Below, in pieces: positions 4,083 to 60,098 of a stretch of 60,195 nucleotides of DNA. Both the position numbers and the translations under genes were made by a program. The notes beneath the pieces are model-generated. The model saw only the letters and a program-made list of their open reading frames with translations, searched no databases and was not told where the DNA came from. Source of the stretch: Armatimonadota bacterium. Its GTDB lineage: Bacteria; Sysuimicrobiota; Sysuimicrobiia; Sysuimicrobiales; Humicultoraceae. Location of the stretch: positions 1 through 60,195 of the forward strand of contig JBQTJP010000107.1 of assembly GCA_052386995.1 (NCBI GenBank), in the 5' to 3' direction. The first letter of the stretch is position 1; the number at the start of each line of letters is the position of its first letter.

Positions 4083-4085
4083 GGC

Positions 4086-5554: not shown

Positions 5555-5556
5555 GA

Positions 5557-6538: not shown

Positions 6539-6544
6539 ATTATA
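6539..6544 (-). promoter_or_regulatory. candidate -10 hexamer (TATAAT) for the acc operon, overlapping the cyclase stop codon
   Basis: The minus strand reads ctgcggTATAATcc. The hexamer contains the TAA stop (6542-6540) and sits about 55 nt upstream of the accD ATG. The -35 is weak (TGGCGG). Confidence 0.3.
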
Positions 6545-16724: not shown

Positions 16725-18733
16725 ACGGGCCGGACGCCGGCGAGCGCCTGGTTGCCCTGCACGACCTCATACAGGTTCGTGGTGGGGAAATACGGCGGCG
16801 TGAATCCGCGGCTCATCCGTCGGTCATACCGGAAGTCGCGGCCGTACCCCGTGACCGGGTTACCGGTGTTCGGATCGAAGGTCCCGAAAGCCCCGTAGTA
16901 CTCTTCGATGATCCCGCCAATCAGGCGCACCGTACCCCGCGGGGATCCGACGTTGTAATTCTGGACGTTCACCGAGCTGTTGAAGCCATCTCCCACGACG
17001 CCCGCCATCAAGACGGCATGAAGGTCCAGATCGTTGGGCGCGGCGGTCGTGATCCTGATCTCGTTGCCGGCCGAGTACAGGCCCAGCACGTTGAGCGGGT
17101 TGTCATTGGGGTCGGTGACGACGGGCGGCCGCTCGTAGCGTAGATGGTTTGTGATGTCGATCCTGCCTGCGGTGACGATCGACGTCTGCTCGTTCTCCTC
17201 GAGCGTCCCGCCCAGCGACAGGACGTTCCCCTGAACGTAGATGATGGCGGCGTTGGCGTTTCCGGGGCCCTGCCAGCCCTTCGGGACGCCCGTAAACGTT
17301 CGCGTGGATGGTGAAGACCACGCCGAGTTCGTGACGGTTGTCGTCCCGGCCGCCCGGTTGACGGTCACCGTGACGGTCTGACCTCCCTGAACGAGCGTGT
17401 ACACGGCCAGATTGTTTGTGGGCCCGGAGACGCTCAACGTCAGGCTGTCCAGGTTTCCCTGGACGTAGATCCCACCCGCGAGGGCTTCGCCGGCATCAGA
17501 GATGCTGTTGCTGTTGCCATCGGCCACGGGGACGTAGATCCCTGTGGGCACGGAGCTGCTGCTGTCCGGCAGCTCGGGGATCACCTGCCGGATCTGCGAA
17601 TTGGTCACGGGAGACGTATCGGTGGGATCTCGCCCGACCGCGACGCCCTGCTGCACATACGGGTTGGTCGGCATCGCGATGGCGGACACGCCGCGCGTGA
17701 AGTTGGCCGGCGAGTTGTCGTTGTCGTCGGTGTAGGTCGTCGGCGTGCAGTCGGGGAGCACGGGCGCGTCACGGCGCACGCCGCTCACGACGTTTTCATT
17801 GGCAGCGAGCTGGATCGGGTTGTTGTTGTTGTTGTACCACGCGGTGGTACTGACACTGGTCAGCAGGGTCGAGGCGATCCTGGTGGGATCGCAGGGAGTG
17901 CCGCTGTCAGGAGTCCCGTACTTCGGAAAGAACGCGAACCTGTACTGGCCGTTGGTATGCACCGGGCCGTCGAAGCTCGTGCGGCTCGTAAACCAGATCG
18001 CCCCGCCTGCCGGCGTCGTGTGCACGTGCGTGAAGAGCGCGTAGCGGGCGAAGTTCTGCCTCCGCACGCGCAGGCTGAAGTCGCGCGAGAACGTCACGCG
18101 CCGGCGCGACTGGGCAGGCACCCAGGAATCGCTGGTGATGTTGTAGGTGTAGTAGTACTCGTACTCCTCAGCCGGCATCAGCTCCTGAATGTAGCGCTGC
18201 GGTGCGGCGGGGTTGGTGGGATGGGGCGCCAGCCGTCGTGAGATCACGACGGTGGCCGCGTACGTGCCGACCCCGAGCGGGTTGGCGGGCGCCGGTCCGG
18301 CCACCTGAAGCTTGCGATGGGGTTGGGCCAGGCTCCAGTTGACGTAGAACGTCGCGGAGCTCGTGGCCGGAGTCGCGCCCAACGTGTAGCGCATCCCATC
18401 AAGGACGAGGTAGTCGAACATTGCGAACGCGTTCTGGTTGGCCGCGACCCCATTGGCATACCAGCCCTGCATCGTCGCGCCGCCGAGTGACGGGTCGACG
18501 GTCGTGACGCCGCTCGGGTCGGCGTTCATCAGGGCCATCAGCGACGAGCGCGCTCTGACGGCCCCGGCCTCGGCGATGTACATGCTCTGGGCGCCGAGCG
18601 TCCTCATCGTGGTCAACCCGACTTCCTTGCCGGCCAGGTAGAGGACGAGGCCGCTGAGAATGGCCAGGATCAGAATGGCCGTGAGCGCAGAGATCAGGGC
18701 CAGTCCTCGCTGATCACTCCTGTGCCGCCACAT
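16703..18733 (-). CDS. large PilX-N-domain pilus-associated protein (676 aa)
   Basis: ATG with a GGAGG SD. The N-terminus QRGLALISALTAILILAILSGLVLYLAGKEVGLTTMRTLGAQSMYIAEAG matches the PilX N-terminal domain pattern. The remainder is Gly/Thr/Asn/Val-rich, beta-rich sequence ending ...GGIIEEYYGAFGTF...GYGRDFRYDRRM..PPYFPTT. Confidence 0.75.
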   Translation of the reverse strand: MWRHRSDQRGLALISALTAILILAILSGLVLYLAGKEVGLTTMRTLGAQSMYIAEAGAVRARSSLMALMNADPSGVTTVDPSLGGATMQGWYANGVAANQNAFAMFDYLVLDGMRYTLGATPATSSATFYVNWSLAQPHRKLQVAGPAPANPLGVGTYAATVVISRRLAPHPTNPAAPQRYIQELMPAEEYEYYYTYNITSDSWVPAQSRRRVTFSRDFSLRVRRQNFARYALFTHVHTTPAGGAIWFTSRTSFDGPVHTNGQYRFAFFPKYGTPDSGTPCDPTRIASTLLTSVSTTAWYNNNNNPIQLAANENVVSGVRRDAPVLPDCTPTTYTDDNDNSPANFTRGVSAIAMPTNPYVQQGVAVGRDPTDTSPVTNSQIRQVIPELPDSSSSVPTGIYVPVADGNSNSISDAGEALAGGIYVQGNLDSLTLSVSGPTNNLAVYTLVQGGQTVTVTVNRAAGTTTVTNSAWSSPSTRTFTGVPKGWQGPGNANAAIIYVQGNVLSLGGTLEENEQTSIVTAGRIDITNHLRYERPPVVTDPNDNPLNVLGLYSAGNEIRITTAAPNDLDLHAVLMAGVVGDGFNSSVNVQNYNVGSPRGTVRLIGGIIEEYYGAFGTFDPNTGNPVTGYGRDFRYDRRMSRGFTPPYFPTTNLYEVVQGNQALAGVRPVWREGTP

Positions 18734-18751
18734 AAGAATCCCTCCGGAGCC

Positions 18752-19354
18752 CTAACGGGCGCGCAGTGCTGCGTCTCCCGCGAACGTGCGGCTGACCTGG
18801 TTCCTCGTGGTCGCCACAATCATACGCACGCGGGCGATGATGCTGACGTCCGCCGGAGTAGACCCCAGTGAGGTACCGGCGGAGTCGAAGTACTCGAAGC
18901 TCAGACCGTTCGTGCCATCGGGCCGCACGACCGAGAAGGCGATCGCTTCCCCCGTCCCTCCCGGTGGGCACCCTGCACCGACGGCGTTCTCCCTCCGCGT
19001 GACGGTATCCGCGGCCGCGTCGTAATCGAAGGTGACGAGGTAGGTGGGGCCCACAGTGGAAAACGGCGCGCCTTGCGGTATCAAGAGTGTGACGGAGGTG
19101 GCGCTGGCGCACGTGACGGATTGCGCCCACCGGATCTCGTCAACGGCGGTATCGAGCGCCGCCCGTACCTGCGGCTGGGCCTGCAAAAAGTCGTTCGCCA
19201 AGCGGGCAGACCGCCCACCGATGCCAACAAAGGCGAAGATGCCCCCGATGACCAGGGCGAACATAGAGAGCGCTATCAGCAGCTCGAGGAGAGTGACGCC
19301 GCGCGGGTCGCGCAGCGCGGCCGCGGCCGATCGAGCCAGGCCGTTATTGGTCAT
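18752..19354 (-). CDS. prepilin-type minor pilin (PilW/GspJ-like)
   Basis: 200 aa. Leader ...LRDPRG|VTLLELLIALSMFALVIGGIFAFV (N-terminal cleavage/methylation domain with Glu at +5). Confidence 0.8.
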   Translation of the reverse strand: MTNNGLARSAAAALRDPRGVTLLELLIALSMFALVIGGIFAFVGIGGRSARLANDFLQAQPQVRAALDTAVDEIRWAQSVTCASATSVTLLIPQGAPFSTVGPTYLVTFDYDAAADTVTRRENAVGAGCPPGGTGEAIAFSVVRPDGTNGLSFEYFDSAGTSLGSTPADVSIIARVRMIVATTRNQVSRTFAGDAALRAR

Positions 19355-19787
19355 CGAGGACCGTTATAAGCTCGATAAACGGCGTAACGTCGGCAGGTCG
19401 AAAGATTTGCACCGACGCTGTCGTCAATGTCAGGTCGGGGTTGAGGGCGACGTTGACGGCCACCTCGAAAGGGTGGGGGGTCGGGTTCGTGACGCCGCTG
19501 TATGGTGCCGGGAGGGGCAAGGCTGTTCGGGCCAGGCTGACGAACCCCACCATGGTGTACGGATTGACGCTCGCGCGGATCTGTTCCATGACCTGCATGC
19601 CAATCGTCGTCGCCGCAGCCCGCTCGTTGGATCGGCCCGTGTGGGTCATGCTCGAGACAAACGTCTGAAGGATGAAGATTGCGACCGTGGCCAAGAGCGT
19701 GAGTGCGACGAGGAGCTCGATGAACGTAAATCCCGCATCCCAGCGGGCGTGCCTGACGTTCTCTGCGCGCCGCGGTGTAGCAATCAT
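19344..19787 (-). CDS. prepilin-type minor pilin (PilV/GspI-like)
   Basis: 147 aa. ...HARWDAG|FTFIELLVALTLLATVAIFILQTF. First gene of the four-gene pilin operon; it overlaps the next gene by 11 nt. Confidence 0.8.
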   Translation of the reverse strand: MIATPRRAENVRHARWDAGFTFIELLVALTLLATVAIFILQTFVSSMTHTGRSNERAAATTIGMQVMEQIRASVNPYTMVGFVSLARTALPLPAPYSGVTNPTPHPFEVAVNVALNPDLTLTTASVQIFRPADVTPFIELITVLDDQ

Positions 19788-36072: not shown

Positions 36073-37566
36073 ATGAGCATTCGCGCGCGCGCAGCCGCGG
36101 TCATCGCGGTCGTATGCCTCGTGGCGGCGCCGGCCGCCGCGCAGATCTTCAACGACATGACCAATCATCCGGCCCGGCGAGCCGCGGAGCGTCTGGCGGC
36201 CAAGGGCATCGTCGTCCGCCTTCCCGACGGCCGGCTGGCACCGGACGAGCCGCTGACCCGGCTGGACATGGCGCAGTTCCTCGGCCGGATGGTCGGCATT
36301 CCGTCGGGCGGCAGGCAACCCGACTTCCGAGACATCGACCAAATTCCCCCGGCCGATCGCGCGGCCGTCGCCGCGGCTACAACGCTCGGCACGGTCTCGG
36401 CCCGGAAGGTAGAAATAAAGAAGGGCAGCGTCGTCTACACGCTGTCGACGAACAAAGCCTCCTACTCGCCAACTGAAGAGATCGAGCTTACCCTGACCAT
36501 TGCCAATGTGGGGCCCGGCCGCGAGACCGAGATGATGAGCGGGGAGCGGGGGCGCCACCGCATCAAGCTCAGCGAGCGCGATGGGCTCAAAGTCGGCTAT
36601 GAGGGCGAACTGTACGTCGAGAACCGGACGCAGCAGGGTGTCACACGCGATCTTGTCGCCCGGGTCCGGATCGTTGAAGTGAAGGCCGATGGTTCGACCG
36701 TCGAGGTCGTCGATGAGGGCAAGGTCGCGCCGAAGGCCGGTCTGAAGGTCTTCTGGCTGCAGGACGCCTGGTTCGAGTACGCGACGACCCAGTTCCACGA
36801 CTTCGTCATCCGGGACATAGAGGGCAACGAGATCGCCCGGTGGTCGCTGAACCGCCCGTTCCAGCCAAACGAACGCCCGCTCCCCCTGGCCGCCAACCAG
36901 ACGCTGTCGTATCAGACGCGGTGGAAGCAGCTCGATCAGAATGACCAGCCGGTGAAGCCCGGCCGGTACGAGCTCGTGGGCATGCACACGACAAAGGAGA
37001 ATCAGACGGTCGTGGTGATCGGGTTTCAGCGCGGGCTGATCCCGATCTTTCCCGACAACACGTTCCGGCCCCGCCAGCCGATCACACGGGGCGACCTCGC
37101 GGCGTTCGCCGTTCGCGGGCTCGGTCTGGAGGCCGACGCGCTTCGCAAAGCCAACGACCCGCTGCAAGTCGCCGACGCGCGCGACATCCCTGCGGAGATC
37201 CGGCCGCACATCGTGCTGGCCATCGAGCGGAAGCTGGTGGTTCCGCTGGCGGACAACACGTTCAGACCCGGGCGGACCGCGACCCGAGGCGAGGCCATCG
37301 TCACCCTCAACGCCATGATGGAGGCGCAGGGCCGCTACGATTACACGACGGCGACGCTGCGGGAGGTCCGCGGCGGGCCGCCTCCGGTGGTCGTGGTTGA
37401 AGACAGCAACAGGCAGATCCGTTCGCACCGCGTCGCGGTCGTCAGCGCCGTTTACCGCAATGACAACCCGGTCCTCCTGCTGCAGCTGCGGCCCGGCGAC
37501 CAGCTCAAGATGCTGAAGCCCACCGACGCCGGTGAGGCCATCTATATCGAAGCCACAGGGCGGTGA
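36073..37566 (+). CDS. secreted SLH-domain protein with a BsuPI-like (intracellular proteinase inhibitor fold) central domain
   Basis: GAAGGAGG SD. Signal peptide MSIRARAAAVIAVVCLVAAPAAA. SLH-like segments (FNDMTNHPARRAAERLAAKGIV; FPDNTFRPRQPITRGDLAAFAV; LADNTFRPGRTATRGEAIVTL). The central segment YSPTEEIELTLTIANVGP...FHDFVIRDIEGNEIARWS...LAANQTLSYQTRW...VKPGRYELVG resembles BsuPI. Confidence 0.8.
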   Translation: MSIRARAAAVIAVVCLVAAPAAAQIFNDMTNHPARRAAERLAAKGIVVRLPDGRLAPDEPLTRLDMAQFLGRMVGIPSGGRQPDFRDIDQIPPADRAAVAAATTLGTVSARKVEIKKGSVVYTLSTNKASYSPTEEIELTLTIANVGPGRETEMMSGERGRHRIKLSERDGLKVGYEGELYVENRTQQGVTRDLVARVRIVEVKADGSTVEVVDEGKVAPKAGLKVFWLQDAWFEYATTQFHDFVIRDIEGNEIARWSLNRPFQPNERPLPLAANQTLSYQTRWKQLDQNDQPVKPGRYELVGMHTTKENQTVVVIGFQRGLIPIFPDNTFRPRQPITRGDLAAFAVRGLGLEADALRKANDPLQVADARDIPAEIRPHIVLAIERKLVVPLADNTFRPGRTATRGEAIVTLNAMMEAQGRYDYTTATLREVRGGPPPVVVVEDSNRQIRSHRVAVVSAVYRNDNPVLLLQLRPGDQLKMLKPTDAGEAIYIEATGR

Positions 37567-47473: not shown

Positions 47474-48325
47474 ATGATTCGGCCGAAGATGACCGTCGCG
47501 ATCGGCACGTCGGGCTTCGCCTACGATCACTGGCGCGGCGTGCTGTATCCCGAGGACCTGCGCCGCGACCAGTGGCTGAGCCATTACTCGGCCACGTTCC
47601 CGACGGTCGAGCTGAATGTCACCTTCTACCGCACGCCGCCCAAGGCCACCTGTGAGGCCTGGCGCCGCGCCACGCCGGCGCATTTCCGGTTCGTCGTGAA
47701 AGGCAGCCGCTTCATCACACATCTCAAGCGGCTGGAGGATGCCGCGGAGCCTCTCAAGACATTCTTTCAGGCGATCGGCCATCTGGGCGCCAAGCTGTCC
47801 GTCGTGCTCTGGCAGCTGCCCCCCGGCCAGCCCGCCGATCCGCCGCGGCTGGATAAGTTTCTGACGGTCATCAACAAGACCCTGTCTCCGCGCCTGCGAT
47901 GGGCGGGGCGCCTCAGGCACGCCCTGGAGTTCCGCGAGCGGTCGTGGTATTCGGATGCGGTCTACAAGGTGCTCCGGAGGCACGATGCCGCGATGGTGAT
48001 TGCCGACAGTCCGTTCAACCTGGTGACTGAGGGCATGGAGCTCGCGACCGGGCCCGCGGAGACCGAGACCATCGAGGTGCCGCTGGTGAGTTCCTGGACG
48101 TACCTGCGCCGTCATGGCCCGGACGGGCAGATTCGCCGCTCGTACCCTGAGGCGCTTCTGCGTCAGTACGCGGCGGCCATTGCGTCGTGGGCAAAGCGTG
48201 GCGACGTGTTTGTCTTCTTCAACAACGATCCTGGTGGCTGCGCGGTCAAGGATGCGTTGACCCTGAAGCGACTCGTGGAACCCGAAGCGGACGTTCGCGA
48301 GCCGACTCGCCGGCGGCGGGCGTGA
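47474..48325 (+). CDS. DUF72 (YecE-like) family protein
   Basis: 283 aa. IGTSGFAYDHWRGVLYPEDL...YSATFPTVELNVTFYRTP...FRFVVKGSRFITH is typical DUF72. Confidence 0.85.
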   Translation: MIRPKMTVAIGTSGFAYDHWRGVLYPEDLRRDQWLSHYSATFPTVELNVTFYRTPPKATCEAWRRATPAHFRFVVKGSRFITHLKRLEDAAEPLKTFFQAIGHLGAKLSVVLWQLPPGQPADPPRLDKFLTVINKTLSPRLRWAGRLRHALEFRERSWYSDAVYKVLRRHDAAMVIADSPFNLVTEGMELATGPAETETIEVPLVSSWTYLRRHGPDGQIRRSYPEALLRQYAAAIASWAKRGDVFVFFNNDPGGCAVKDALTLKRLVEPEADVREPTRRRRA

Positions 48326-50085
48326 CGACCGCCGGATCCCTCGCCGCGATGCTCGCTGTCCTGGCGGCCGCGGTGCTGGGCAGCATCCCCACAGGATATC
48401 TTGCGGGACGGTGGCTGCGCGGCATCGATGTGCGCCGCCTCTCCCCCCACAATCTGGGCATGGGCGCCGTGGTCGCCGCAGCCGGCCTCCCCGCGCTGGC
48501 GGCGGCGGTGTCGCTCGACGTTATTAAAGGAAGCCTCGCCGTCGTGATTGCCAGCCGGATCAGTCCCTCCGACATGTCGCTCGCCGCCTCCGCGGCCGCC
48601 GTGGTGATCGGGCACGCGTACTCACCGTTCTGGCTGGTGATCCCTCCGGCGTTCGCGCGCGTGATGGGCGTGGCCGCCTCCGTTGGTGCAGCCGCGGCGA
48701 TCGCGGCCCTTGGTGCGATTCCCTGGGCAGCGCTGGCTGTTCCCGCGGCCGTCGCGGTGGTCGTCCTCGCGGCCCCCCGGCTCCTGGGCCGTCGATGGGG
48801 GTACCTTTCGCTTGCAAATGTGCTCGCCGCCGTGAGCGCGCCGGTGGCGCTCTGGATGACGGGCGCCCGGATCCCGTATGTCCTTCTCGGCCTGGCATTC
48901 GCGGTTGCGACTCTGTGGAACCACAAAGAGCACCTGGCGCGCATCATCGATGGAACCGAACCGCGGCTGGGCGATCGGTTGCCGGTGCCGCATCTGGATG
49001 GAGAGGAGGTCGTGTGCGCGTTCCTCATCCACCCGATGACGATCGACGACGTCTGGGAAGCCAGGCGATTCCGCTGGCTCGCTCCGCTCCGACGCCGGGG
49101 TCTGGTCTCCGACCGCGCCATCCGCTGGCTGGCCCGCGTCGTGCGGCCGATGAAGGTGGACGATATCCATCCGGTGCGCACCGCCGACGGTCGCCGCGCC
49201 CGCGTCTACCTGATCGGCGTGCCGCTGCTGCCCGATCAGATTCGCGCCTTGCCGGCCCTGGCCGTGCACCGGGCGGTGCAGGCGGCCCACCTGGCCGCGA
49301 ACCTGGGCGCCACCGTGTTGGGATTGGGGGCATACTGGTCCGTGGTGGGGAACAAGGGGATCGATGTCCAGGCGCAGTCGTCGATTGCCATCACGAACGG
49401 CGGGGCCTATACCGCGGGCACCGTGAGGATGGCGGTCCCCTTGGTGCTCGATCGGCTTCGCGCGGGGGGCCGCGACCCGTCGCGGACGACGGCGGCGGTC
49501 GTCGGCGCAAACGGCGTCGTGGGCTTCGGGATCTGCCGTGCGGTCGTCGAGCACGTGGGGCGGCTCATCATGCTGGGGACGAGCCAGGAGCGACTGGATC
49601 AATCCCGCGATCTGCTCCGACGCCGCTACCCGAGCGCGGTCATTGACGCGACGACCAGCCTGAATACGCTGCGCGAGGCGGATATCATCTTCACAGCAAC
49701 CTCGGAGCCCGCGCCGGTCGTGTTTCCGGAGCACGTCCGGCCCGGCAGTATCATCTTCGATCTCGGACGGCCCTACGATGTTGATGCCTCGGTCGCCGCG
49801 ATGGACGGAGTGGACGTCATTCCCGGCGGGGTCGTCCGGCTGCCGGGCGATCCACGAGGACGGCTGGACATGGGCTACGGATCGGGCCTGGTGCCCGCGT
49901 GTCTGGCCGAGACCGTCATCATCGCGCTCGATCAGTGCTACGAGCGTGTCAGCCTGGGCGACCGCACGAAGAATGAGAATGTCGACTTCTTCGTGGCACG
50001 GGCCGCAGCCTTCGGCTTCGAAGTGCAGACCACCGGCCGGCGCACCGCGGTCCCCGAGGCGCCTTCGCCGGTCTACACGCGATAG
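48322..50085 (+). CDS. fusion protein: PlsY-like polytopic membrane domain (degenerate motifs) + acyl-ACP-reductase-like (COG5322) NAD(P)-binding domain
   Basis: One uninterrupted ORF. N-terminal half: MLAVLAAAVLGSIPTGYLAG...LDVIKGS...IGHAYSPF...WNHKEHLARIIDGTEP (PlsY layout). C-terminal half is collinear with cyanobacterial AAR as I recall it: FLIHPMTIDD, LGLGAYWSVV, VVGANGVVG, EADIIFTATS, PACLAETVI. GTG 48322 overlaps the DUF72 stop (GTGA). ATG 48349 is an alternative start. Confidence 0.8.
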   Translation: MTTAGSLAAMLAVLAAAVLGSIPTGYLAGRWLRGIDVRRLSPHNLGMGAVVAAAGLPALAAAVSLDVIKGSLAVVIASRISPSDMSLAASAAAVVIGHAYSPFWLVIPPAFARVMGVAASVGAAAAIAALGAIPWAALAVPAAVAVVVLAAPRLLGRRWGYLSLANVLAAVSAPVALWMTGARIPYVLLGLAFAVATLWNHKEHLARIIDGTEPRLGDRLPVPHLDGEEVVCAFLIHPMTIDDVWEARRFRWLAPLRRRGLVSDRAIRWLARVVRPMKVDDIHPVRTADGRRARVYLIGVPLLPDQIRALPALAVHRAVQAAHLAANLGATVLGLGAYWSVVGNKGIDVQAQSSIAITNGGAYTAGTVRMAVPLVLDRLRAGGRDPSRTTAAVVGANGVVGFGICRAVVEHVGRLIMLGTSQERLDQSRDLLRRRYPSAVIDATTSLNTLREADIIFTATSEPAPVVFPEHVRPGSIIFDLGRPYDVDASVAAMDGVDVIPGGVVRLPGDPRGRLDMGYGSGLVPACLAETVIIALDQCYERVSLGDRTKNENVDFFVARAAAFGFEVQTTGRRTAVPEAPSPVYTR

Positions 50086-54400: not shown

Positions 54401-55384
54401 ATGTTCAAAACACGCATGCTCGCCACAGGGGTCGCGGCCGCCCTTACGGTCATCGTCGCGTCCGCGGTGCTCCCGGCTGCCGCGCAGGTCAAGGTGGACT
54501 CACTGCTCACAACCTATCGGGCGGTCACGGGTATCAGCGGCAACCTGTCGAGCGTCGGCTCGGATACACTGAACAATTTGATGACCCTCTGGGCTGAGGG
54601 CTTCAACAAGTTCTACCCCAATGTCCGGATTCAGATCGAGGGCAAGGGCTCCAGCACCGCGCCGCCCGCGCTGATTGCCGGCACCGCCCAGCTCGGTCCG
54701 ATGTCGCGGCCGATGAGGGCCAGCGAGATCGACCAGTTCGAGCGTAAGTACGGCCACAAGCCGACGGAACTCAGGGTGGCTGTTGACGCCCTGGCGGTCT
54801 TCGTCAACAAGGACAACCCGATCAAGTGCCTCACGTTGGCGCAAACCGACGCCATCTTCTCAAAGTCGCGGCGCGCCGGCCACCGTGAGGACATCAGGAC
54901 ATGGGGCCAGATCGGGCTTACCGGCGAGTGGGCGAGCCGGCCGCTCAGCCTCTACGGCCGCAACTCGGCGTCGGGCACGTACGGGTTCTTCAAGGAGCAT
55001 GTCCTGAAGAACGGCGACTACAAGGACGAGGTGAAGGAACAGCCGGGGTCGGCCGCGGTCGTGCAGGGCGTCACCGTTGACCGCTTCGCCGTAGGCTACA
55101 GCGGGATTGGGTATGCTACCGCCGGCGTCCGGTCTGTGCCATTGGCCGAGAGGGAAGGCGACTGCGTCGAGGCTAACCAAGCGAACGCTTACTCCGGCAA
55201 GTATCCGCTGTCTCGATTCCTGCTGATCTACGTCAACCGGAGCCCCAGTCAGGCCGGCGATCCGCTGATCCGGGAGTTCGTCCGATACGCGCTCTCGAAG
55301 CAAGGGCAGGAAGTTGTCGTCAAGGATGGCTACTTCCCAATCCCGGCCATGATCGCGGCCGAGGAGATGAGGAAAATTCAGTAG
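54401..55384 (+). CDS. pstS: phosphate ABC transporter substrate-binding protein
   Basis: 327 aa. AAGGAGG SD. Signal peptide (LATGVAAALTVIVASAVLPAAAQ). GSDTLNNLMTLWAEGF, GKGSSTAPPALIAGTAQLGPMSRPM, and GYSGIGY. Confidence 0.93.
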   Translation: MFKTRMLATGVAAALTVIVASAVLPAAAQVKVDSLLTTYRAVTGISGNLSSVGSDTLNNLMTLWAEGFNKFYPNVRIQIEGKGSSTAPPALIAGTAQLGPMSRPMRASEIDQFERKYGHKPTELRVAVDALAVFVNKDNPIKCLTLAQTDAIFSKSRRAGHREDIRTWGQIGLTGEWASRPLSLYGRNSASGTYGFFKEHVLKNGDYKDEVKEQPGSAAVVQGVTVDRFAVGYSGIGYATAGVRSVPLAEREGDCVEANQANAYSGKYPLSRFLLIYVNRSPSQAGDPLIREFVRYALSKQGQEVVVKDGYFPIPAMIAAEEMRKIQ

Positions 55385-55398
55385 GCCTCGAGAAGCGC

Positions 55399-57660
55399 GT
55401 GGCACGTCGTTCACCGGAGTTCGCGCCCGCGGGCGGGCCGCCACTAGCGGACCGCCCGATCGGGATTTCCCGCGAGAGTGTCAATCGCCGTCTTCTGGCT
55501 GACCGGATCGGCCGGCGTATCGTCACTCTCGGCGGCGTCGCCATCATCATGTCCATACTGGCCATTCTCGTGGTGATCGTCGTGGAGGTGGCGCCGCTGT
55601 TCCGTGCTCCGAGCGTGCGGCCGCTAGCGACGCTGTCGGCCGCTGTCACGACGCCGCCGCTGGGCCTCGGCGTCGACGAGCACCGCCAGATCCTCTACCT
55701 GATCACGGAGTCGGGTGTGCAGCTCGTCCGCGCCGAGGACGGCACGCGCCTGCCAACCCCAGGTCTGCCCGGCTTGAACGTGGCGCGTGTCGTTGCCACT
55801 TCGGCGTTGGGCCGCGGAGTCTTTGCCCTGGGCCTTTCCGACGGCCGGGTCATCCCCGCAGACGTCAGGTTCACGGTGAGCTTCCCGGAAGGGCGGCGGC
55901 GGGTGAGCCCCGAGGTGGTCCCGCAGCCGCCGATCGTCGTCAACCCGGATGGCCGGCCGATTCGGCGTCTGGCGTACACCGTGACCCGCGACGGATCGGT
56001 GCTCGCGGCTGCGATCGGGGAACGGCATCTGGTCCTGATGTCCGTTAAGGAACAGAAAGCGCTGGTCGGTCCCACGACCCGCGAGGTCGTACGGCAGCGC
56101 GCAACCCTGCCGGCGGAGATCACGGCTCTTGCGACCGACAGCCGAGGCGACAGTGTTTTCGTCGGGACGTCGTCGGGCCAGATCGTCGTGCTGAGGCCCT
56201 CGGAGGGTGGTGCGCCCCGCGTCATCGCCACGGCGGCCGCAGCGCAGGGCGGCTCGGCGATCACGATGCTGGGCCTGTTGATCGGCGACCGCACGCTGGT
56301 GACCGGGGACGCTTCCGGAGCCGTAACGTCCTGGCAACTCCTCAGGGACGGTCAGGGGTCGATGCGCCTGACGAAGATGTACGAATTCGCCCACCACGAA
56401 GCCTCCGTCGTCGCCTTCTCGTCATCCCAGCGGGACAAAGGGTTTCTCACGGCGGACGCGGCCGGAAACGTGTTCCTTCACTATGGCACGAGCGGGCGGA
56501 CGCTCCTGCGCCTTCGGGCCGGGCAAGACTTGAGCGCGCTCACTTACGCCCCAAAGGTTGATGGGCTACTGGCCGTCGGGTCCACCGGCCGAATAGAGCA
56601 CTGGGCCGTGCGCAACCCGCATCCCGAGATTACCCTGCACACTCTCTTTGGCCGTGTCTGGTACGAGGGATATTCGGAGCCGGCATACGTGTGGCAGTCC
56701 ACCGGAGCCACAGACGACTTCGAAGCAAAGTTCAGCCTGACGCCGCTCATCTACGGCACGTTGAAAGGGACGTTCTACGCGCTACTTTTCGCCGTTCCGC
56801 TGGCGCTGTTCGGCGCGCTCTACGCATCGCAGTTCATGCACCCCACGCTGAGGGGCGTCGTGAAGCCGGTAGTCGAGATCATGGCCGCCCTGCCAAGCGT
56901 CGTGCTGGGGTTTCTGGCCGGGCTGTGGCTCGCTCCACGCGTCGAAAAGGTCGTGCCCGGCGTCTTTCTGATGCCGCTCGTGATCACGGCGCTGGTGCTG
57001 GCGGCGGCCGCGCTGTGGCGCTTGGCCCCGCCTGCACTGCGCAGGCGCGTACGGCCCGGGTCGGAGGTCTTCCTCCTGGTTCCGATTGTGCTTGGGGGGG
57101 GCTGGCTCGCGTTCCGTCTGGGTGGGCTGGTCGAGCTCGTCCTGCTCGGTGGAGATTACCGCGGATGGCTGTTGAGCGCGCTGGGACTCACCTACGACCA
57201 GCGGAACTCTCTGGTGGTCGGCCTGGCGATGGGCTTTGCCGTGGTCCCGATCATCTTCACGATTGCCGATGACGCGCTGTCGAACGTGCCCGGGCATCTC
57301 ACCGCAGGCTCGCTCGCGCTGGGCGCGACGCGGTGGCAGAGTGCTGTGCGGGTGGTCCTGCCCACGGCCAGCCCGGGGATCTTTTCGGCCGTCATGATTG
57401 GGTTCGGTCGAGCCGTGGGCGAGACCATGATCGTGCTCATGGCCACGGGCAACACGCCGGTGATGGACTGGTCCATTTTCAACGGTCTGCGGGCGTTGTC
57501 GGCCAATGTGGCGGTGGAACTCCCCGAGGCGCCGTACGGCGGCACACTCTATCGGGTGCTGTTCGTGGCGGCGCTGCTTCTGTTCGTCATGACGTTTACC
57601 GTGAACACGGCCGCCGAGATCGTGAGGCTGCGCCTGCGAAGGCGCTATCAGGCCCTATGA
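55399..57660 (+). CDS. pstC: phosphate ABC transporter permease PstC, long form with a large extracytoplasmic beta-propeller-like insert
   Basis: 753 aa. TM1 (VTLGGVAIIMSILAILVVIVVEV), then about 400 aa with WD40-like repeats (GTSSGQIVVLR; GDASGAVTSWQL; TADAAGNVFLHY; VGSTGRIEHWAV). The canonical PstC core follows (TPLIYGTLKGTFYALLFAVPLAL...GFGRAVGETMIVLMATGN). Confidence 0.88.
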   Translation: MARRSPEFAPAGGPPLADRPIGISRESVNRRLLADRIGRRIVTLGGVAIIMSILAILVVIVVEVAPLFRAPSVRPLATLSAAVTTPPLGLGVDEHRQILYLITESGVQLVRAEDGTRLPTPGLPGLNVARVVATSALGRGVFALGLSDGRVIPADVRFTVSFPEGRRRVSPEVVPQPPIVVNPDGRPIRRLAYTVTRDGSVLAAAIGERHLVLMSVKEQKALVGPTTREVVRQRATLPAEITALATDSRGDSVFVGTSSGQIVVLRPSEGGAPRVIATAAAAQGGSAITMLGLLIGDRTLVTGDASGAVTSWQLLRDGQGSMRLTKMYEFAHHEASVVAFSSSQRDKGFLTADAAGNVFLHYGTSGRTLLRLRAGQDLSALTYAPKVDGLLAVGSTGRIEHWAVRNPHPEITLHTLFGRVWYEGYSEPAYVWQSTGATDDFEAKFSLTPLIYGTLKGTFYALLFAVPLALFGALYASQFMHPTLRGVVKPVVEIMAALPSVVLGFLAGLWLAPRVEKVVPGVFLMPLVITALVLAAAALWRLAPPALRRRVRPGSEVFLLVPIVLGGGWLAFRLGGLVELVLLGGDYRGWLLSALGLTYDQRNSLVVGLAMGFAVVPIIFTIADDALSNVPGHLTAGSLALGATRWQSAVRVVLPTASPGIFSAVMIGFGRAVGETMIVLMATGNTPVMDWSIFNGLRALSANVAVELPEAPYGGTLYRVLFVAALLLFVMTFTVNTAAEIVRLRLRRRYQAL

Positions 57661-59267
57661 GGAGGACGTTCTGGCGCTCCGGCGATCCGCTGATCTGGCT
57701 GACCGGCGCGGCTCTCGCCTTCGCGCTCATCATGGTGGCCGGGCTGGTTCTGCTGATACTTATCAACGGCCTGGGGTTCTTCTGGCCCAAAGACGTCGCT
57801 CGCCTTATGCTCCGCGACGGCCGCTCGATACTGGGCGAGATCGTCGAGCGGGAGGTCATTCCCGGATCTACCGCCACTGCGCCGCGCTATCGGGTGAAGG
57901 TCAAGCAGGGGAATCGGGACGCGTTCGGGGCCGATTTCGTCTGGCTCGACGAGGACGAGATCACGGCGCGCGAGCGTCCGCGCGACGCCATTGTGGTGGA
58001 ACGGCGTGAGTGGGGCAACCTCTACGGGTTTCTCAAAGAAGTGCGCGGCGCTGGCGGTGGACCCGCGACAGGCGCCGACGCGTGGGCCGCGCTGCATACG
58101 CGGCTTCCAGAAGCACAGCACCTGGTCGAGCGCATCCGGCGGATTGAGCGGCGCGATGTCGGCGCAATCAATCGCGAACAGGAACGCCTCCGGCTCGGCC
58201 TGCGAACTCTTGAATTGCAGGGCATCAAGCAGGGCCCCGAGGTCGATCGCATTCGTGAAGAGATGGCGCGCTGGCAGGCGAGATACGACGAGCGTGCGGC
58301 CGAGCTCGCAGCGCTCCGGGAGCGTCAGACCGGCACCGCCGTCTTTGTCCTGGCCGATGGCAAGGAGATTGAGGTTCCTCTGACCCAGATCGTGCGACCC
58401 TACCGCCCGAACGCCACGGGTGCCGGTCCGAAGGCGGGCCTGTACGCCGCGAAGGTCTGGGAGTTTATCGCGGGAGAGCCCCGCGAGTCCAACACCGAGG
58501 GGGGCGTCTTCCCGGCGATTTTCGGCACGGTCATGATGGTCGTGATCATGAGCATTGTGGTGACCCCATTGGGCGTGCTCGCGGCGTTCTACCTGCGGGA
58601 GTATGCGAAGCAGGGTCCGTTCGTGAGCGCCGTCCGTATCGCCGTGAACAACCTAGCCGGCGTGCCGTCAATCGTCTTCGGGGTGTTCGGCGTCGGCTTC
58701 TTCATCTACTTCGTCGGCGGCGGCGTTGACCGCCTGTTTTATCCCGAGTCGCTGCCCGCACCGACGTTCGGCACCGGCGGCATCCTCTGGGCGTCGCTGA
58801 CGCTGGCCTTGCTTACCGTTCCCGTCGTCATCGTCGCCGCCGAGGAAGGCCTGGCGGCCGTCCCGCGCAGCATCCGTGAGGCGTCGTACGCGCTAGGGGC
58901 CACAAAGCTCGAGACCACCCTGCGCGTCGTGACGCCGGCGGTGCTCCCGTCGATCCTCACCGGGTTGATCCTGGCGATGGCGCGGGCCGCGGGGGAGGTC
59001 GCTCCACTCATGATCACCGGGGTGGTCAAGCTCGCGCCGACCCTGCCGGTAGACGGCATCTGGCCCTTTGTCCACCTGGAGCGCAAGTTCATGCACCTCG
59101 GCTTCCACATCTACGACGTCGGCTTTCAGTCGCCCAATGTGGACGCCGCACGCCCGATGGTGTTCGCGACCACTCTGCTGTTGCTGGGAATTGTGCTCGT
59201 CCTGAACCTGTTTGCGATCATGATGCGCAATCGGCTGCGACGCCGGTACGCGACGTCTGCGGTCTAG
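57657..59267 (+). CDS. pstA: phosphate ABC transporter permease PstA, long form with a coiled-coil-containing periplasmic insert
   Basis: The ATG overlaps the pstC stop (ATGA). MRRTFWRSGDPLIWLTGAALAFALIMVAGLVLL. About 250 aa of insert includes a charged coiled-coil region (ERIRRIERRDVGAINREQERLRL...ARWQARYDERAAELAALRE). The PstA core follows (GVFPAIFGT..., ASYALGATKLETTLRVV). Confidence 0.88.
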   Translation: MRRTFWRSGDPLIWLTGAALAFALIMVAGLVLLILINGLGFFWPKDVARLMLRDGRSILGEIVEREVIPGSTATAPRYRVKVKQGNRDAFGADFVWLDEDEITARERPRDAIVVERREWGNLYGFLKEVRGAGGGPATGADAWAALHTRLPEAQHLVERIRRIERRDVGAINREQERLRLGLRTLELQGIKQGPEVDRIREEMARWQARYDERAAELAALRERQTGTAVFVLADGKEIEVPLTQIVRPYRPNATGAGPKAGLYAAKVWEFIAGEPRESNTEGGVFPAIFGTVMMVVIMSIVVTPLGVLAAFYLREYAKQGPFVSAVRIAVNNLAGVPSIVFGVFGVGFFIYFVGGGVDRLFYPESLPAPTFGTGGILWASLTLALLTVPVVIVAAEEGLAAVPRSIREASYALGATKLETTLRVVTPAVLPSILTGLILAMARAAGEVAPLMITGVVKLAPTLPVDGIWPFVHLERKFMHLGFHIYDVGFQSPNVDAARPMVFATTLLLLGIVLVLNLFAIMMRNRLRRRYATSAV

Positions 59268-59276
59268 GAGGCACGC

Positions 59277-60098
59277 ATGGCGGGTTCTGCCCAGGTGAAC
59301 ATTCGCCCCGCGACGGGAGCGCACGCGGGAACGCCGGTGGCGGCCAAACCGGTGGTCGAGATCAATGGTCTCAGCCTCTGGTATGGCGAGAGTCGGGCGC
59401 TCAGGGACATCTCGATGGCCGTGCCGCAGCATCAGATCACCGCGTTGATCGGCCCCTCCGGTTGCGGCAAGAGCACGCTGCTGCGCTGTATGAACCGCCT
59501 CAACGACTTGATCGACGGCGTGCGCATCGAGGGAACGATCCGCATCGTCGGGGTGGACATCTACGATCCGGCGTTGGACGTCACCGAGCTGCGCAAGCGC
59601 GTGGGGATGGTGTTCCAGAAGTCCAACCCGTTCCCCAAGTCGATCTACGAGAACGCGGCCTTCGGGCCACGAATCCTGGGCGTCAAGGGGAAGGCGGAGT
59701 TGGACGCGATCGTGGAGCGCAGCCTGCGTGACGCCGCGCTGTGGGATGAGGTGTCCGACCGTCTGCACGAGAGCGCGCTGAGCCTGTCGGGCGGCCAGCA
59801 GCAGCGCCTGTGCATCGCCCGGGCCATTGCGGTTGAGCCAGAGGTCTTGCTGATGGACGAGCCGTGCTCGGCCCTCGATCCTGTGGCGACGGCCAAGATC
59901 GAGGACCTGATGACCGGACTGAAGACGCACTACACGATCGTGATCGTGACGCACAACATGCAGCAGGCGGCCCGCGTTTCTGATCAGACGGGGTTCCTCC
60001 TGCTCGGCGAGCTGATCGAGTTCGGGCCAACCCAGACGCTGTTCACCACGCCGCGCGATTCGCGGACGGAAGACTACATCACCGGCCGGTTCGGCTGA
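59277..60098 (+). CDS. pstB: phosphate ABC transporter ATP-binding protein
   Basis: 273 aa. Walker [10 protein letters not shown], signature [14 protein letters not shown], and Walker [12 protein letters not shown]. Confidence 0.96.

What the first reader, a model, noticed from the sequence alone, without database searches (positions are those of the whole stretch)
48322..50085. Single-ORF fusion of a degenerate PlsY-like membrane domain to an acyl-ACP-reductase-like (COG5322) domain
Seen in sequence: one continuous ORF of about 587 aa.
- The first ~220 aa have the PlsY layout: LGSIPTGYLAG, DVIKG, an IGH..PF histidine, and C-terminal NHKEHLARIIDGTEP.
- The signature phosphate/G3P-binding motifs are not conserved. 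GSGNxGATN reads SPHNLGMGA, and the GGKG-type motif reads ARVMG.
- After a short linker (about 48960-49020), the remaining ~360 aa are collinear with cyanobacterial long-chain acyl-ACP reductase as I recall it. Matches include FLIHPMTIDD vs LIGHLTSLEQ, LGLGAYWSVV vs ALGGFTSII, the GxxGxxG Rossmann VVGANGVVG vs VVGATGDIG, EADIIFTATS vs EADFIVWVAS, and PACLAE vs FACFAE.
- PACLAE vs FACFAE is the segment that, as I recall, carries the catalytic Cys of AAR.

Inference: this is a membrane-embedded, Cys-dependent fatty-acyl reductase. The PlsY-derived module probably no longer acylates glycerol-3-phosphate. It may instead bind or present acyl-phosphate or acyl-ACP at the membrane. Reduction of an acyl-phosphate through a thioester would parallel ASADH/ArgC chemistry. 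Products could be fatty aldehydes or alcohols feeding ether-lipid, wax or hydrocarbon synthesis. I do not know of a characterised protein with this architecture.
Basis: partly seen in the sequence, partly recalled or inferred. Interest (0 to 1): 0.78.

Follow-up and report, generated by a model that had tools for sequence, protein, structure and literature searches.

The report
Membrane PlsY-like domain fused to acyl reductase
This gene encodes a real, conserved but unstudied membrane enzyme that joins a worn-down copy of the bacterial phospholipid-starting enzyme PlsY to a cysteine-dependent fatty-acyl reductase, and it probably makes a reduced fatty product (an aldehyde) at the membrane rather than ordinary phospholipid.

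Summary
Window 48322-50085 (+) is one uninterrupted 587-aa ORF.

- **N-terminal domain (aa ~9-218):** PlsY fold (Pfam PF02660, E 4e-23; Foldseek TM 0.75-0.77 to PDB 5XJ5/5XJ8).
- **C-terminal domain (aa ~228-570):** AAR/PigE-N-type reductase (Foldseek E 1e-20 to 6JZU).
  - It has an intact GxGxxG loop.
  - Its invariant Cys527 aligns with AAR Cys294 and PigE Cys296.

More than 110 full-length homologues from independent assemblies share this architecture, mostly Armatimonadota MAGs, so it is not a frameshift artefact.

Against the aaPlsY structure-function data, this protein has lost all four G3P phosphate-clamp residues (S35P, R45A, K104M, N180H) and Thr41. It keeps Asn37, His92 and His177. 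The fusion family runs from fully canonical PlsY modules to degenerate ones like this. In this clade the PlsY module evolves faster than the reductase.

Related reductases are also fused to PlsC-type acyltransferases and to lipid-binding SRPBCC domains.

No conserved lipid operon and no publication on the fusion were found. The function is inferred. The most likely activity is formation of a fatty aldehyde through an acyl-Cys intermediate, with release into the PlsY-derived lipid groove. The product's fate and the acyl donor are unknown. I rate it a new variant of known kinds, of moderate to high interest.

The parts
48322..50085 (+). Whole fusion gene, 587 aa. The GTG start overlaps the stop of the upstream DUF72 gene. 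An alternative ATG lies at 48349.
   Evidence: The identical 587-aa protein is in the database as P0001.
48346..48975 (+). PlsY-fold integral-membrane domain (aa 9-218), predicted as a multi-helix membrane bundle
   Evidence: PF02660 E 3.9e-23. aaPlsY 5XJ5 E 1e-10 over aa 9-218. Foldseek TMt 0.75-0.77 to 5XJ5/5XJ8. AF2 helices 3-210 with pLDDT mostly above 90.
48442..48468 (+). Degenerate PlsY motif 1, SPHNLGMGA (canonical GSGNxGATN). Ser35->Pro42, Thr41->Gly48, Asn42->Ala49. Asn37 is kept as Asn44. Arg45->Ala52 lies just downstream.
   Evidence: Residue roles are from PMC5700162.
48613..48615 (+). His98, equivalent to aaPlsY His92 (binds the acyl-phosphate phosphate). Invariant in all fusion clades.
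48655..48669 (+). Loop-3 remnant ARVMG (canonical GGKG). Lys104->Met115. Most clade-A relatives keep Lys (56 of 62).
48922..48933 (+). Motif-3 remnant HKEH. His177 is kept (His201). Asn180->His204, a substitution reported to almost abolish aaPlsY activity.
48949..49002 (+). Conserved junction DGTEPRLGDRLPVPHLDG between the two domains. D210, G211, E213, P214, R215 and P221 are conserved in both clades.
   Evidence: Modelled with pLDDT 78-91, not as a floppy linker.
49003..50031 (+). AAR/PigE-N-type reductase domain (aa 228-570)
   Evidence: Foldseek E 1.2e-20, TMt 0.77 to 6JZU. HMMER hits to 4PPM and 6JZU. NF053554 and TIGR04058.
49504..49524 (+). Dinucleotide-binding loop GANGVVG (AAR 162-GATGDIG-168)
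   Evidence: (G395, A396, G398 and V400 invariant)
49894..49911 (+). PACLAE. Cys527 (codon 49900-49902) aligns with the catalytic Cys294 of AAR and Cys296 of PigE. P525, A526, C527 and E530 are invariant in 82 family members.

Best explanation
The gene encodes a two-domain inner-membrane enzyme.

**Reductase domain (cytoplasmic, C-terminal).** It works like cyanobacterial AAR and the PigE N-domain.
1. An activated fatty acyl group is transferred to Cys527 as a thioester. The donor is most likely acyl-ACP, since the contig encodes acetyl-CoA carboxylase subunits.
2. NAD(P)H bound at the GANGVVG loop reduces it to a fatty aldehyde.

**Handover to the membrane domain.** In every characterised relative the aldehyde leaves tail-first through a hydrophobic tunnel to a bound partner. 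Here the N-terminal end of the AAR fold carries that tunnel exit, and it follows directly on the C-terminus of the PlsY-fold domain. I infer that the PlsY-derived lipid groove and lateral gate receive the product and pass it into the bilayer.

**PlsY module in this lineage.** It has lost the G3P phosphate clamp and is not a glycerol-3-phosphate acyltransferase. It keeps His92, Asn37, the DxxKG motif and a conserved junction. It is therefore more than a passive anchor, but its chemistry, if any, is unknown.

**Shown versus inferred.**
- Shown: domain identities, residue states, family conservation and gene context.
- Inferred: substrate, direction of transfer, product and its downstream fate (fatty alcohol, ether or alkenyl lipid).
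For: - **Reductase fold and catalytic residues.** AAR fold with Cys527 on AAR Cys294 and PigE Cys296, plus an invariant Rossmann loop.
- **Mechanism in relatives.** AAR and GluTR act through an acyl-Cys intermediate and channel the aldehyde to ADO and GSAM respectively. The same is proposed, by homology modelling, for PigE and its aminotransferase domain. The AAR acyl tunnel exits at NTD residues 21-26.
- **Rigid two-domain model.** AF2 gives pLDDT 90.1 and pTM 0.88 for the whole protein, with an ordered junction. This argues for a fixed domain arrangement.
- **Loss of the G3P site.** S35P, R45A, K104M, N180H and T41G against measured aaPlsY mutant effects.
- **Relaxed constraint on the PlsY module in this clade.**
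  - Mean pairwise identity is 53% against 69% for the reductase.
  - Columns conserved at 95% or more number 35/205, against 75/205 in the near-canonical sister clade.
- **Residual conservation.** N44, H98, D66, K69, K202, E203 and the junction are conserved in both clades.
- **Lipid link.** The same reductase family is also fused to PlsC-type acyltransferases and SRPBCC lipid-binding domains.
- **Fatty acid synthesis on the contig.** accC and an accA/accD-like gene are present.
- **Conserved housekeeping position.** glyA-upp-[DUF72]-fusion-...-dCMP deaminase-DEAD recurs in 14 related loci.
Against: - No biochemical data exist for any member.
- I could not obtain model coordinates or PAE. The claim that the tunnel exit faces the PlsY groove rests on sequence adjacency and analogy only.
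- No partner that would use an aldehyde (ADO, AGPS, aminotransferase, aldehyde reductase) lies nearby.
- Retention of the acyl-phosphate-binding His92 and Asn37 could instead mean that acyl-phosphate is still a ligand.
- The TAD relatives show that this fold may resolve the Cys thioester without hydride transfer.
- Sister clades with canonical PlsY residues imply that the ancestral fusion coupled the reductase to genuine G3P acylation. A pure 'exit conduit' role does not explain that.
Confidence: 0.42

Rival explanations
1. Acyl-phosphate reductase. The PlsY-derived module still binds acyl-phosphate made by PlsX or Fak. With G3P binding gone, the acyl group passes to Cys527 of the reductase and is reduced to the aldehyde. 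The chemistry would parallel ASADH, ArgC and ProA.
For: - The residues that bind acyl-phosphate or stabilise the tetrahedral intermediate (His92, Asn37, and in most relatives Lys/Arg104-Gly) survive in all fusion clades. The G3P clamp is what erodes.
- There is a weak Semialdhyde_dh NAD-binding hit (E 8e-4) and an ArgC hit (E 0.008).
- Fusion to the only known membrane acyl-phosphate-binding fold.
Against: - Thr41, which binds the acyl-phosphate carbonyl, is Gly here, and Lys104 is Met.
- In AAR the Cys sits at the centre of the globular domain, reached through the NADPH cleft. The PlsY phosphate hole is deep in the membrane. Direct transfer looks sterically difficult.
- All characterised relatives use thioester or ester donors.
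- Related reductases are also fused to PlsC-type acyltransferases, which do not use acyl-phosphate.
Confidence: 0.2
2. Ether-lipid starter enzyme analogous to TtFARAT or ElbD. One polypeptide makes both an acylated glycerol-phosphate (or DHAP) backbone and a reduced fatty chain for later ether-bond formation.
For: - The AAR-type reductase is fused to two unrelated glycerolipid acyltransferase folds: PlsY, and PF01553 PlsC-type with intact NHxxxxD and FPEG motifs.
- Fusion members with fully canonical PlsY exist, and one is immediately followed by gpsA.
- There is precedent for reductase-acyltransferase fusions in ether-lipid pathways (TtFARAT, PMC4139215, cited there).
Against: - In the window's protein all four phosphate-clamp residues are replaced. 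It should not bind G3P or DHAP in the PlsY manner.
- No AGPS-like gene lies in any locus examined.
- I found no lipid data for these uncultured lineages.
Confidence: 0.12
3. The PlsY module is an acyltransferase with a new, non-phosphorylated lipid acceptor. It would acylate a fatty alcohol or long-chain diol supplied by the reductase, giving wax-ester-like or glycerol-free lipids.
For: - The loss is selective. The phosphate clamp is gone, while His92, Asn37, DxxKG and about 35 near-invariant positions are retained.
- On a crude tree the erosion of the clamp appears to have happened repeatedly.
Against: - As far as I know, AAR-type enzymes stop at the aldehyde, which cannot be acylated.
- Thr41 and Lys104 are also lost here.
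- The PlsY module evolves faster than the reductase. This looks more like decay than a new specificity.
Confidence: 0.1
4. Non-reductive acyl shuttle. The AAR-like domain takes the acyl group from acyl-ACP onto Cys527 and passes it to phosphate (a PlsX analogue) or another nucleophile. NAD(P) would be a structural cofactor.
For: - TAD domains share the fold, the invariant Cys and NAD binding, and are proposed to resolve the thioester with ammonia.
- The domain is fused to the acyl-phosphate consumer.
- gpsA is adjacent in a canonical member.
Against: - With the G3P site destroyed in this clade, the acyl-phosphate would have no acceptor.
- The closest characterised relatives by sequence are the reductive AAR and PigE.
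- There are no data on plsX absence.
Confidence: 0.08
5. Assembly or annotation artefact. Two adjacent genes (plsY-like and a COG5322 reductase) have been merged by a missed stop or frameshift.
For: One related locus (L018) has the PlsY part split over two frames.
Against: - 111 full-length single-ORF homologues come from independent assemblies (NCBI, JGI, ENA, Logan).
- The junction is conserved.
- The whole-protein model is confident.
Confidence: 0.01

Closest known systems
PlsY, acyl-phosphate:glycerol-3-phosphate acyltransferase (Aquifex aeolicus PlsY, PDB 5XJ5-5XJ9; PF02660, TIGR00023)
   Same: - Same membrane fold (Foldseek TMt 0.75-0.77).
- Keeps LGS-P-G-Y, DxxKG, GH (His92), Asn37 and His177.
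- Stand-alone housekeeping gene context.
   Different: - All four G3P phosphate-clamp residues are replaced (S35P, R45A, K104M, N180H), and so is Thr41.
- Score of 78 bits against the 137-bit equivalog cut-off.
- Carries a 360-aa reductase at its C-terminus.
Cyanobacterial long-chain acyl-ACP reductase AAR (Synechococcus elongatus, PDB 6JZQ/6JZU; TIGR04058)
   Same: - Three-subdomain fold (TMt 0.77, E 1e-20).
- GxGxxG loop.
- Catalytic Cys in the (P/F)AC(L/F)AE segment.
   Different: - About 23% identity, and 46 bits against the 450-bit cut-off.
- No ADO partner or hydrocarbon pathway nearby.
- Covalently tethered to a membrane domain, whereas AAR is soluble and docks onto ADO.
PigE / TamH N- or C-terminal thioester reductase domains (prodigiosin and tambjamine pathways; PDB 4PPM)
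   Same: - Best sequence match among named families (NF053554, E 6e-29).
- Same Cys (PigE Cys296).
- Same design principle: the reductase is fused to the enzyme that takes the aldehyde.
   Different: - The fusion partner there is a PLP aminotransferase in a secondary-metabolite cluster.
- Here the partner is a PlsY-fold membrane domain in a housekeeping context.
TAD, putative terminal amidation domain of the carmabin pathway (PDB 9E4S/9E56)
   Same: AAR-like fold with an invariant Cys next to bound NAD (Foldseek E 1e-14).
   Different: - 15-18% identity.
- Terminal domain of NRPS modules.
- Proposed non-reductive chemistry.
ElbD (Myxococcus xanthus) and TtFARAT (Tetrahymena): reductase-acyltransferase fusions of ether-lipid biosynthesis
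   Same: Same logic at the level of architecture: a fatty-acyl reductase and a glycerolipid acyltransferase in one polypeptide.
   Different: - Not homologous on either side, from my knowledge of those proteins: FAR-type reductase and PlsC/GNPAT-type acyltransferase.
- They work with AGPS, which was not found near this gene.
- Their acyltransferase domains are thought to be active.

Membership tests
PlsY (G3P acyltransferase, PF02660 / TIGR00023) | PlsY multi-helix membrane fold | tested here: met
   PF02660 E 3.9e-23, above the gathering score. Foldseek TMt 0.75-0.77 to 5XJ5/5XJ8.
PlsY (G3P acyltransferase, PF02660 / TIGR00023) | G3P phosphate clamp Ser35, Arg45, Lys104, Asn180 (PMC5700162) | tested here: not met
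   Pro42, Ala52, Met115 and His204 in the window protein. Clade A consensus is P, A, K, H. Mutating any of these residues cost over 90% of aaPlsY activity, and N180H almost abolished it.
PlsY (G3P acyltransferase, PF02660 / TIGR00023) | Acyl-phosphate site: His92, Thr41, loop-3 backbone (K104-A107), Asn37 | tested here: inconclusive
   His98 and Asn44 are kept and invariant. Thr41->Gly48, Gly103->Val and Lys104->Met.
PlsY (G3P acyltransferase, PF02660 / TIGR00023) | Equivalog-level score | tested here: not met
   TIGR00023 scores 78.4 bits against a cut-off of 137.2.
PlsY (G3P acyltransferase, PF02660 / TIGR00023) | Acyl-phosphate-dependent acylation of G3P | not testable with these tools
   Needs an enzyme assay or plsY complementation.
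Long-chain acyl-ACP reductase AAR (TIGR04058) | AAR fold with NTD, Rossmann mid-domain and CTD | tested here: met
   Foldseek 6JZU E 1.2e-20, TMt 0.77, 354 aligned columns.
Long-chain acyl-ACP reductase AAR (TIGR04058) | Catalytic Cys294 equivalent | tested here: met
   Cys527 aligns with Cys294. It is invariant in 82 family members.
Long-chain acyl-ACP reductase AAR (TIGR04058) | Dinucleotide loop GX(1-3)GX(1-2)G | tested here: met
   GANGVVG aligns with 162-GATGDIG-168.
Long-chain acyl-ACP reductase AAR (TIGR04058) | Equivalog-level score, and pairing with aldehyde-deformylating oxygenase | tested here: not met
   46.3 bits against a cut-off of 449.7. Pfam annotation found no ADO-like gene among the window's 45 predicted genes, nor among the genes called in the loci looked up with the look-up of encoding contigs.
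Long-chain acyl-ACP reductase AAR (TIGR04058) | NADPH-dependent reduction of acyl-ACP to aldehyde | not testable with these tools
   Needs an assay.
PigE (prodigiosin MAP aminotransferase/reductase, NF053554) | Reductase domain plus class-III aminotransferase domain in a pig-type cluster | tested here: not met
   Only profile positions 46-335 of 837 match, at 100.9 bits against a cut-off of 850. There is no aminotransferase domain.
Reductase-acyltransferase ether-lipid fusions (ElbD / TtFARAT type) | FAR-type reductase plus PlsC/GNPAT-type acyltransferase, acting with AGPS | tested here: not met
   The domains here are AAR-type and PlsY-type. No AGPS-like gene lies in the window or loci. The resemblance is one of architecture only.

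The most novel reading that the evidence does not exclude
The PlsY-AAR fusion family is a previously unrecognised membrane lipid pathway in which the PlsY scaffold handles a reduced, non-phosphorylated fatty species delivered by the fused reductase. Two possibilities:
- In members with a canonical PlsY site, the channelled fatty aldehyde condenses with the sn-1 hydroxyl of the glycerol backbone, giving 1-O-alk(en)yl lipids without AGPS, PlsAR or Ger.
- In clamp-less members such as this one, the product is a glycerol-free alcohol or diol-based lipid.

Either would be a new route to ether or non-glycerol lipids in Armatimonadota and other uncultured bacteria.
Probability: 0.13. Interest if true: 0.85.

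Novelty: new variant of a known kind. Interest (0 to 1): 0.62.

Why it matters
- **Paradigm.** PlsY is treated as a single-purpose, single-domain enzyme that commits acyl chains to phospholipid. AAR-type reductases are known from alkane and pigment pathways.
- **What the fusion implies.** A conserved covalent fusion of the two sits in housekeeping gene contexts across Armatimonadota and other uncultured lineages. These bacteria therefore couple fatty-acyl reduction to the membrane step of lipid assembly in a way nobody has examined.
- **A testable series.** The family offers natural variants from canonical to clamp-less PlsY modules. These can show what the PlsY scaffold does when it no longer binds G3P.
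- **Possible payoff.** It is a candidate source of the many orphan bacterial alkyl/alkenyl glycerol or fatty-alcohol-derived lipids seen in hot-spring and subsurface samples.
- **Annotation.** The current automatic name, 'glycerol-3-phosphate acyltransferase', is very probably wrong for this clade.

Tried and rejected
- **Frameshift or merged genes.** Rejected. 111 full-length single-ORF homologues and a conserved junction.
- **Conserved lipid operon.** Not found.
  - Clade-A loci share only housekeeping synteny (prmC-yrdC-rpiB-glyA-upp-fusion-dCMP deaminase-DEAD).
  - The variable inserts encode hydantoinases, peptide ABC transporters and glutamine synthetase.
  - Other clades have unrelated neighbours.
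- **Second PlsY copy or reductase paralogue.** None within the window or 31 loci, by hmmsearch of six-frame translations.
- **plsX/plsY/plsC census of the same genomes.** Not possible.
  - The window is the whole 60-kb contig and carries none of these genes.
- **Link to a cultured organism.** L017 is titled Thermaerobacter marianensis but is 42% G+C. I do not trust the label, and no polar-lipid data exist for that species anyway.
- **Geometry of the two active sites.** The AF2 model is confident, but neither coordinates nor PAE were available to me. No Cys527-to-His98 distance or tunnel orientation could be measured.
- **Literature.** Searches for PlsY + acyl-ACP reductase + fusion, COG5322, PlsY + ether lipids + fused, and Armatimonadota + ether lipids found nothing on this architecture.
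- **1-acyl-DHAP reductase idea** (acyltransferase plus ketone reductase). Considered and set aside, on two counts:
  - The family-wide invariant Cys sits at the AAR nucleophile position.
  - gpsA lies next to a canonical member.
- **Alkane pathway.** Rejected for lack of ADO.

Full report
**1. Observation**

Window 48322..50085 (+) is a single open reading frame of 587 codons. It starts at a GTG that overlaps the stop codon of the upstream DUF72 gene. The longest possible ORF starts at 48187, and an in-frame ATG lies at 48349.

Profile searches confirm both halves:
- PF02660 (G3P_acyltransf), aa 18-208, E 3.9e-23.
- PF01488 (Shikimate_DH-type Rossmann), aa 388-500, E 9e-8.
- TIGR00023 PlsY, E 5.9e-22.
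- TIGR04058 acyl-ACP reductase, E 3.5e-12.
- Best of all, the N-terminal 290 positions of the PigE model NF053554, E 6.2e-29.

All NCBIfam scores are far below the equivalog cut-offs, so this is a relative of those families and not a member.

**2. Residue-level check against solved structures**

A phmmer search of the PDB sequences hits PigE 4PPM (1e-15), S. elongatus AAR 6JZU/6JZQ (4e-11) and A. aeolicus PlsY 5XJ5 (1e-10). Counting along the printed alignments, query Cys527 (PACLAE) falls on AAR Cys294 and PigE Cys296. GANGVVG falls on the AAR dinucleotide loop 162-GATGDIG-168.

Cys294 is the acyl-accepting nucleophile of AAR (PMC7089970). PigE Cys296 was equated with it by others (PMC8341465).

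For the PlsY half I used the structure-function map of Li et al. 2017 (PMC5700162) and an alignment of aaPlsY to 111 family members.

| aaPlsY residue | Role | Window protein |
|---|---|---|
| Ser35 | G3P phosphate clamp | Pro42 |
| Arg45 | G3P phosphate clamp | Ala52 |
| Lys104 | G3P phosphate clamp / phosphate hole | Met115 |
| Asn180 | G3P phosphate clamp | His204 |
| Thr41 | binds acyl-phosphate carbonyl | Gly48 |
| Ser142 | binds G3P 2-OH | Asn166 |
| Asn37 | proposed oxyanion stabiliser | Asn44 (kept) |
| His92 | binds acyl-phosphate phosphate | His98 (kept) |
| His177 | binds G3P 2-OH | His201 (kept) |

In aaPlsY, alanine substitution of any clamp residue cost more than 92% of activity, and N180H almost abolished it. 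The G3P site is gone, and part of the acyl-phosphate site remains.

**3. Structure**

An AlphaFold2 model built on an 82-sequence family alignment has mean pLDDT 90.1 and pTM 0.88 for the whole chain. Only the last 13 residues are disordered. The inter-domain junction is modelled at pLDDT about 78-91.

Foldseek against the PDB returns:
- AAR: E 1.2e-20, TM 0.77 normalised to the target.
- The carmabin TAD domains: E 1e-14.
- PlsY: TM 0.75-0.77.

The high pTM suggests a fixed arrangement of the two domains. I had no access to coordinates or PAE and could not measure how the two active sites face each other.

**4. The family**

The word-indexed search found 435 proteins at E <= 1e-5. Of the best 120, 111 are 560-640 aa and carry both domains. 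They come from NCBI, JGI, ENA and Logan assemblies, which excludes a frameshift artefact.

Source names are mostly Armatimonadota/Armatimonadetes MAGs, with some Bacillota/Firmicutes MAGs. GTDB loci include Candidatus Fervidifonticultor spp. and Candidatus Nitrosymbiomonas.

Two clades are evident:
- **Clade A.** 62 sequences including the window, mostly 60% or more identical to it (the motif-based split also takes in a few more distant degenerate sequences at about 51-55%). It has motif 1 SPHNLG(L/V)G(T/A)V and N180H.
- **Clade B.** 49 sequences, about 50% identical. It keeps S35, N37, T41, N42, R45, H92, K104, S142, H177 and N180.

The window's Lys104->Met is unusual even within clade A (K 56, R 4, M 2).

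Within clade A the PlsY module is less constrained than the reductase. Mean pairwise identity is 53% against 69%, and 35/205 columns are conserved at 95% or more, against 119/342 for the reductase. In clade B the two halves are equally conserved: 64%/64%, with 75/205 and 108/342 columns.

Positions conserved in both clades include N44, H98, D66/K69 (DxxKG), K202/E203 and the junction D210-G-x-E-P-R215...P221. The membrane module has therefore decayed but is not free of selection.

**5. The wider reductase family**

A phmmer scan with the reductase domain alone (aa 228-587) against 1.84 billion cluster representatives gave 2248 hits at E <= 1e-3 and 91 at E <= 1e-30.

Among the best 150 representatives:
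- 18 are PlsY fusions.
- 28 carry an uncharacterised ~310-aa N-terminal domain.
- 10 carry an SRPBCC (Polyketide_cyc) lipid-binding domain.
- 2 carry a PF01553 PlsC-type acyltransferase with NHxxxxD and FPEG motifs.
- Some are PigE/TamH-like aminotransferase fusions.
- 78 are short (stand-alone or fragments).

Five distant PlsY fusions (P0145, P0184, P0192, P0195, P0221) have a fully canonical PlsY module: GSGNIGxTN, GGK and H..N, with PF02660 E 4e-45 for P0145. In one of them the next gene, overlapping the fusion, is gpsA.

A crude neighbour-joining tree of reductase domains was built with no support values.
- It puts all PlsY-fused domains but one (P0192) in one clade.
- The canonical-PlsY members form one subclade and the degenerate ones form the other.
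- The near-canonical clade B is nested among degenerate lineages.

The simplest reading is one old fusion to a working PlsY, followed by repeated erosion of the G3P clamp.

**6. Gene context**

In 14 clade-A loci the gene sits in the same housekeeping neighbourhood as in the window: prmC, yrdC-like, rpiB, glyA, upp, sometimes DUF72, then the fusion, then dCMP deaminase and a DEAD-box helicase. Unrelated inserts lie between the fusion and the deaminase. Other clades have different neighbours.

No second PlsY or reductase copy lies in the window or in any of the 31 loci.

The window's other genes, from Pfam on about 45 predicted genes, include accC and an accA/accD-like carboxyltransferase, rho, argS, prfA, coaBC, coaX and a pst phosphate transporter. 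There is no plsX, plsC, ADO or AGPS.

**7. Mechanism**

*Shown.* A PlsY-fold membrane module without the G3P clamp is covalently and apparently rigidly joined to an AAR-type domain that has every residue tested for thioester-reductase chemistry.

*Established for relatives.*
- AAR and GluTR first move the acyl group onto the Cys, then reduce it with NADPH, and channel the aldehyde to a bound partner enzyme through an exit distinct from the substrate entrance. The same is proposed for PigE on the basis of homology.
- In AAR the acyl tunnel runs from Cys294 to NTD residues 21-26 at the partner interface.

*Inferred.*
- In this protein the equivalent N-terminal stretch of the reductase (aa ~238-260, DDVWEARRFRWLAPLRRRG) follows directly on the C-terminal motif-3 helix of the PlsY fold. 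That helix lines the PlsY active site.
- The likeliest arrangement is therefore that the reduced product exits into the PlsY-derived lipid groove and reaches the bilayer through its lateral gate.
- I commit to this as the best explanation (confidence about 0.4). The acyl donor is probably acyl-ACP. The downstream fate of the aldehyde is unknown.

*Rivals.*
It is favoured by retention of His92 and Asn37. It is disfavoured by the loss of Thr41 and Lys104, by the buried position of the Cys, and by the PlsC-type fusions.
- (b) A TtFARAT/ElbD-like ether-lipid starter. This is attractive for canonical members but hard to reconcile with this clade's lost clamp.
- (c) A PlsY module retargeted to a non-phosphorylated acceptor.
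- (d) A non-reductive acyl shuttle. The TAD relatives give a precedent.

**8. Comparison and novelty**

The protein works like an AAR/PigE-type reductase. It is built on a PlsY scaffold but fails the membership tests of PlsY (clamp and equivalog score), AAR (score and ADO partner) and PigE (no aminotransferase).

At the level of architecture it resembles the reductase-acyltransferase fusions of ether-lipid synthesis, ElbD and TtFARAT. From my own knowledge of those proteins, both domains there are of unrelated families.

Nothing on this fusion turned up in 8 million full-text papers and 0.35 million preprints. Databases label it 'glycerol-3-phosphate acyltransferase' or 'predicted amino acid dehydrogenase'.

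I rate it a new variant of known kinds. The architecture is real, widespread in uncultured bacteria and unstudied. The finding is interesting mainly because it hints at an unrecognised link between acyl reduction and membrane lipid assembly. All functional statements beyond domain identity remain inference.

**9. Limits**

- No whole-genome census.
- No model coordinates.
- No biochemical data.
- The tree is crude.
- Taxonomic labels of MAGs are as deposited, and at least one (L017) is doubtful.

Noticed in passing
window 48664-48666 (codon 115): The window's protein has Met where aaPlsY has Lys104. 56 of 62 clade-A relatives keep Lys, 4 have Arg and only 2 have Met. This is either a further step of decay or a consensus or sequencing variant.
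   Followed up: partly
P0167 / L028 9792-11546; P0240: Relatives of the same reductase domain are fused to a PF01553 (PlsC/LPLAT-type) acyltransferase with intact NHGSEWD and FPEG motifs. P0167 sits just after dnaJ in a ribosomal/chaperone context. This is a second, independent reductase-acyltransferase architecture.
   Followed up: partly
P0143, P0146, P0151 and 25 other representatives: The commonest fusion partner of this reductase family among the top 150 cluster representatives is an N-terminal domain of about 310 aa with no Pfam match. It looks soluble and alpha/beta-like. It was not examined further.
   Followed up: no
P0142, P0152, P0168 and others: Ten representatives fuse the reductase to an SRPBCC/Polyketide_cyc lipid-binding domain. 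This is another hint that the family handles hydrophobic acyl substrates.
   Followed up: no
L027 10001-12710: A distant fusion with a fully canonical PlsY module (P0145) is followed, with overlapping ends, by gpsA (glycerol-3-phosphate dehydrogenase). There the PlsY half probably does the ordinary job.
   Followed up: partly
L018 6485-8848: In this MAG the PlsY part of the fusion gene is split over two reading frames. The database protein P0059 (467 aa) has only the reductase Pfam hit. This is either an assembly indel or a natural loss of the membrane module.
   Followed up: no
L017 (whole locus): The record is titled 'Thermaerobacter marianensis' MAG, but the locus is 42% G+C and its proteins are Lys/Ile-rich. 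The taxonomic label looks wrong, so the fusion cannot be tied to that cultured species.
   Followed up: partly
window 2730-5902 (-): Biotin carboxylase (accC) lies next to a 447-aa carboxyltransferase with both ACCA and Carboxyl_trans hits. The organism makes malonyl-CoA and presumably its own fatty acids.
   Followed up: partly
window 6540-9872 (-): A 1110-aa protein combines zinc ribbons, an adenylate/guanylate cyclase domain, an AAA_16 ATPase and TPR repeats. It looks like a large STAND-like signalling protein.
   Followed up: no
window 16245-19787 (-): A run of four co-directional ORFs (159, 676, 200 and 147 aa). Only one has a Pfam hit, DUF4900. Function unknown.
   Followed up: no
window 36073-37566 (+) and 54401-60098 (+): An SLH-domain protein with a BsuPI domain. 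Further along is a pst-type phosphate transporter cluster: a PBP-like binding protein, a 753-aa permease that may be fused, and an ABC ATPase.
   Followed up: no
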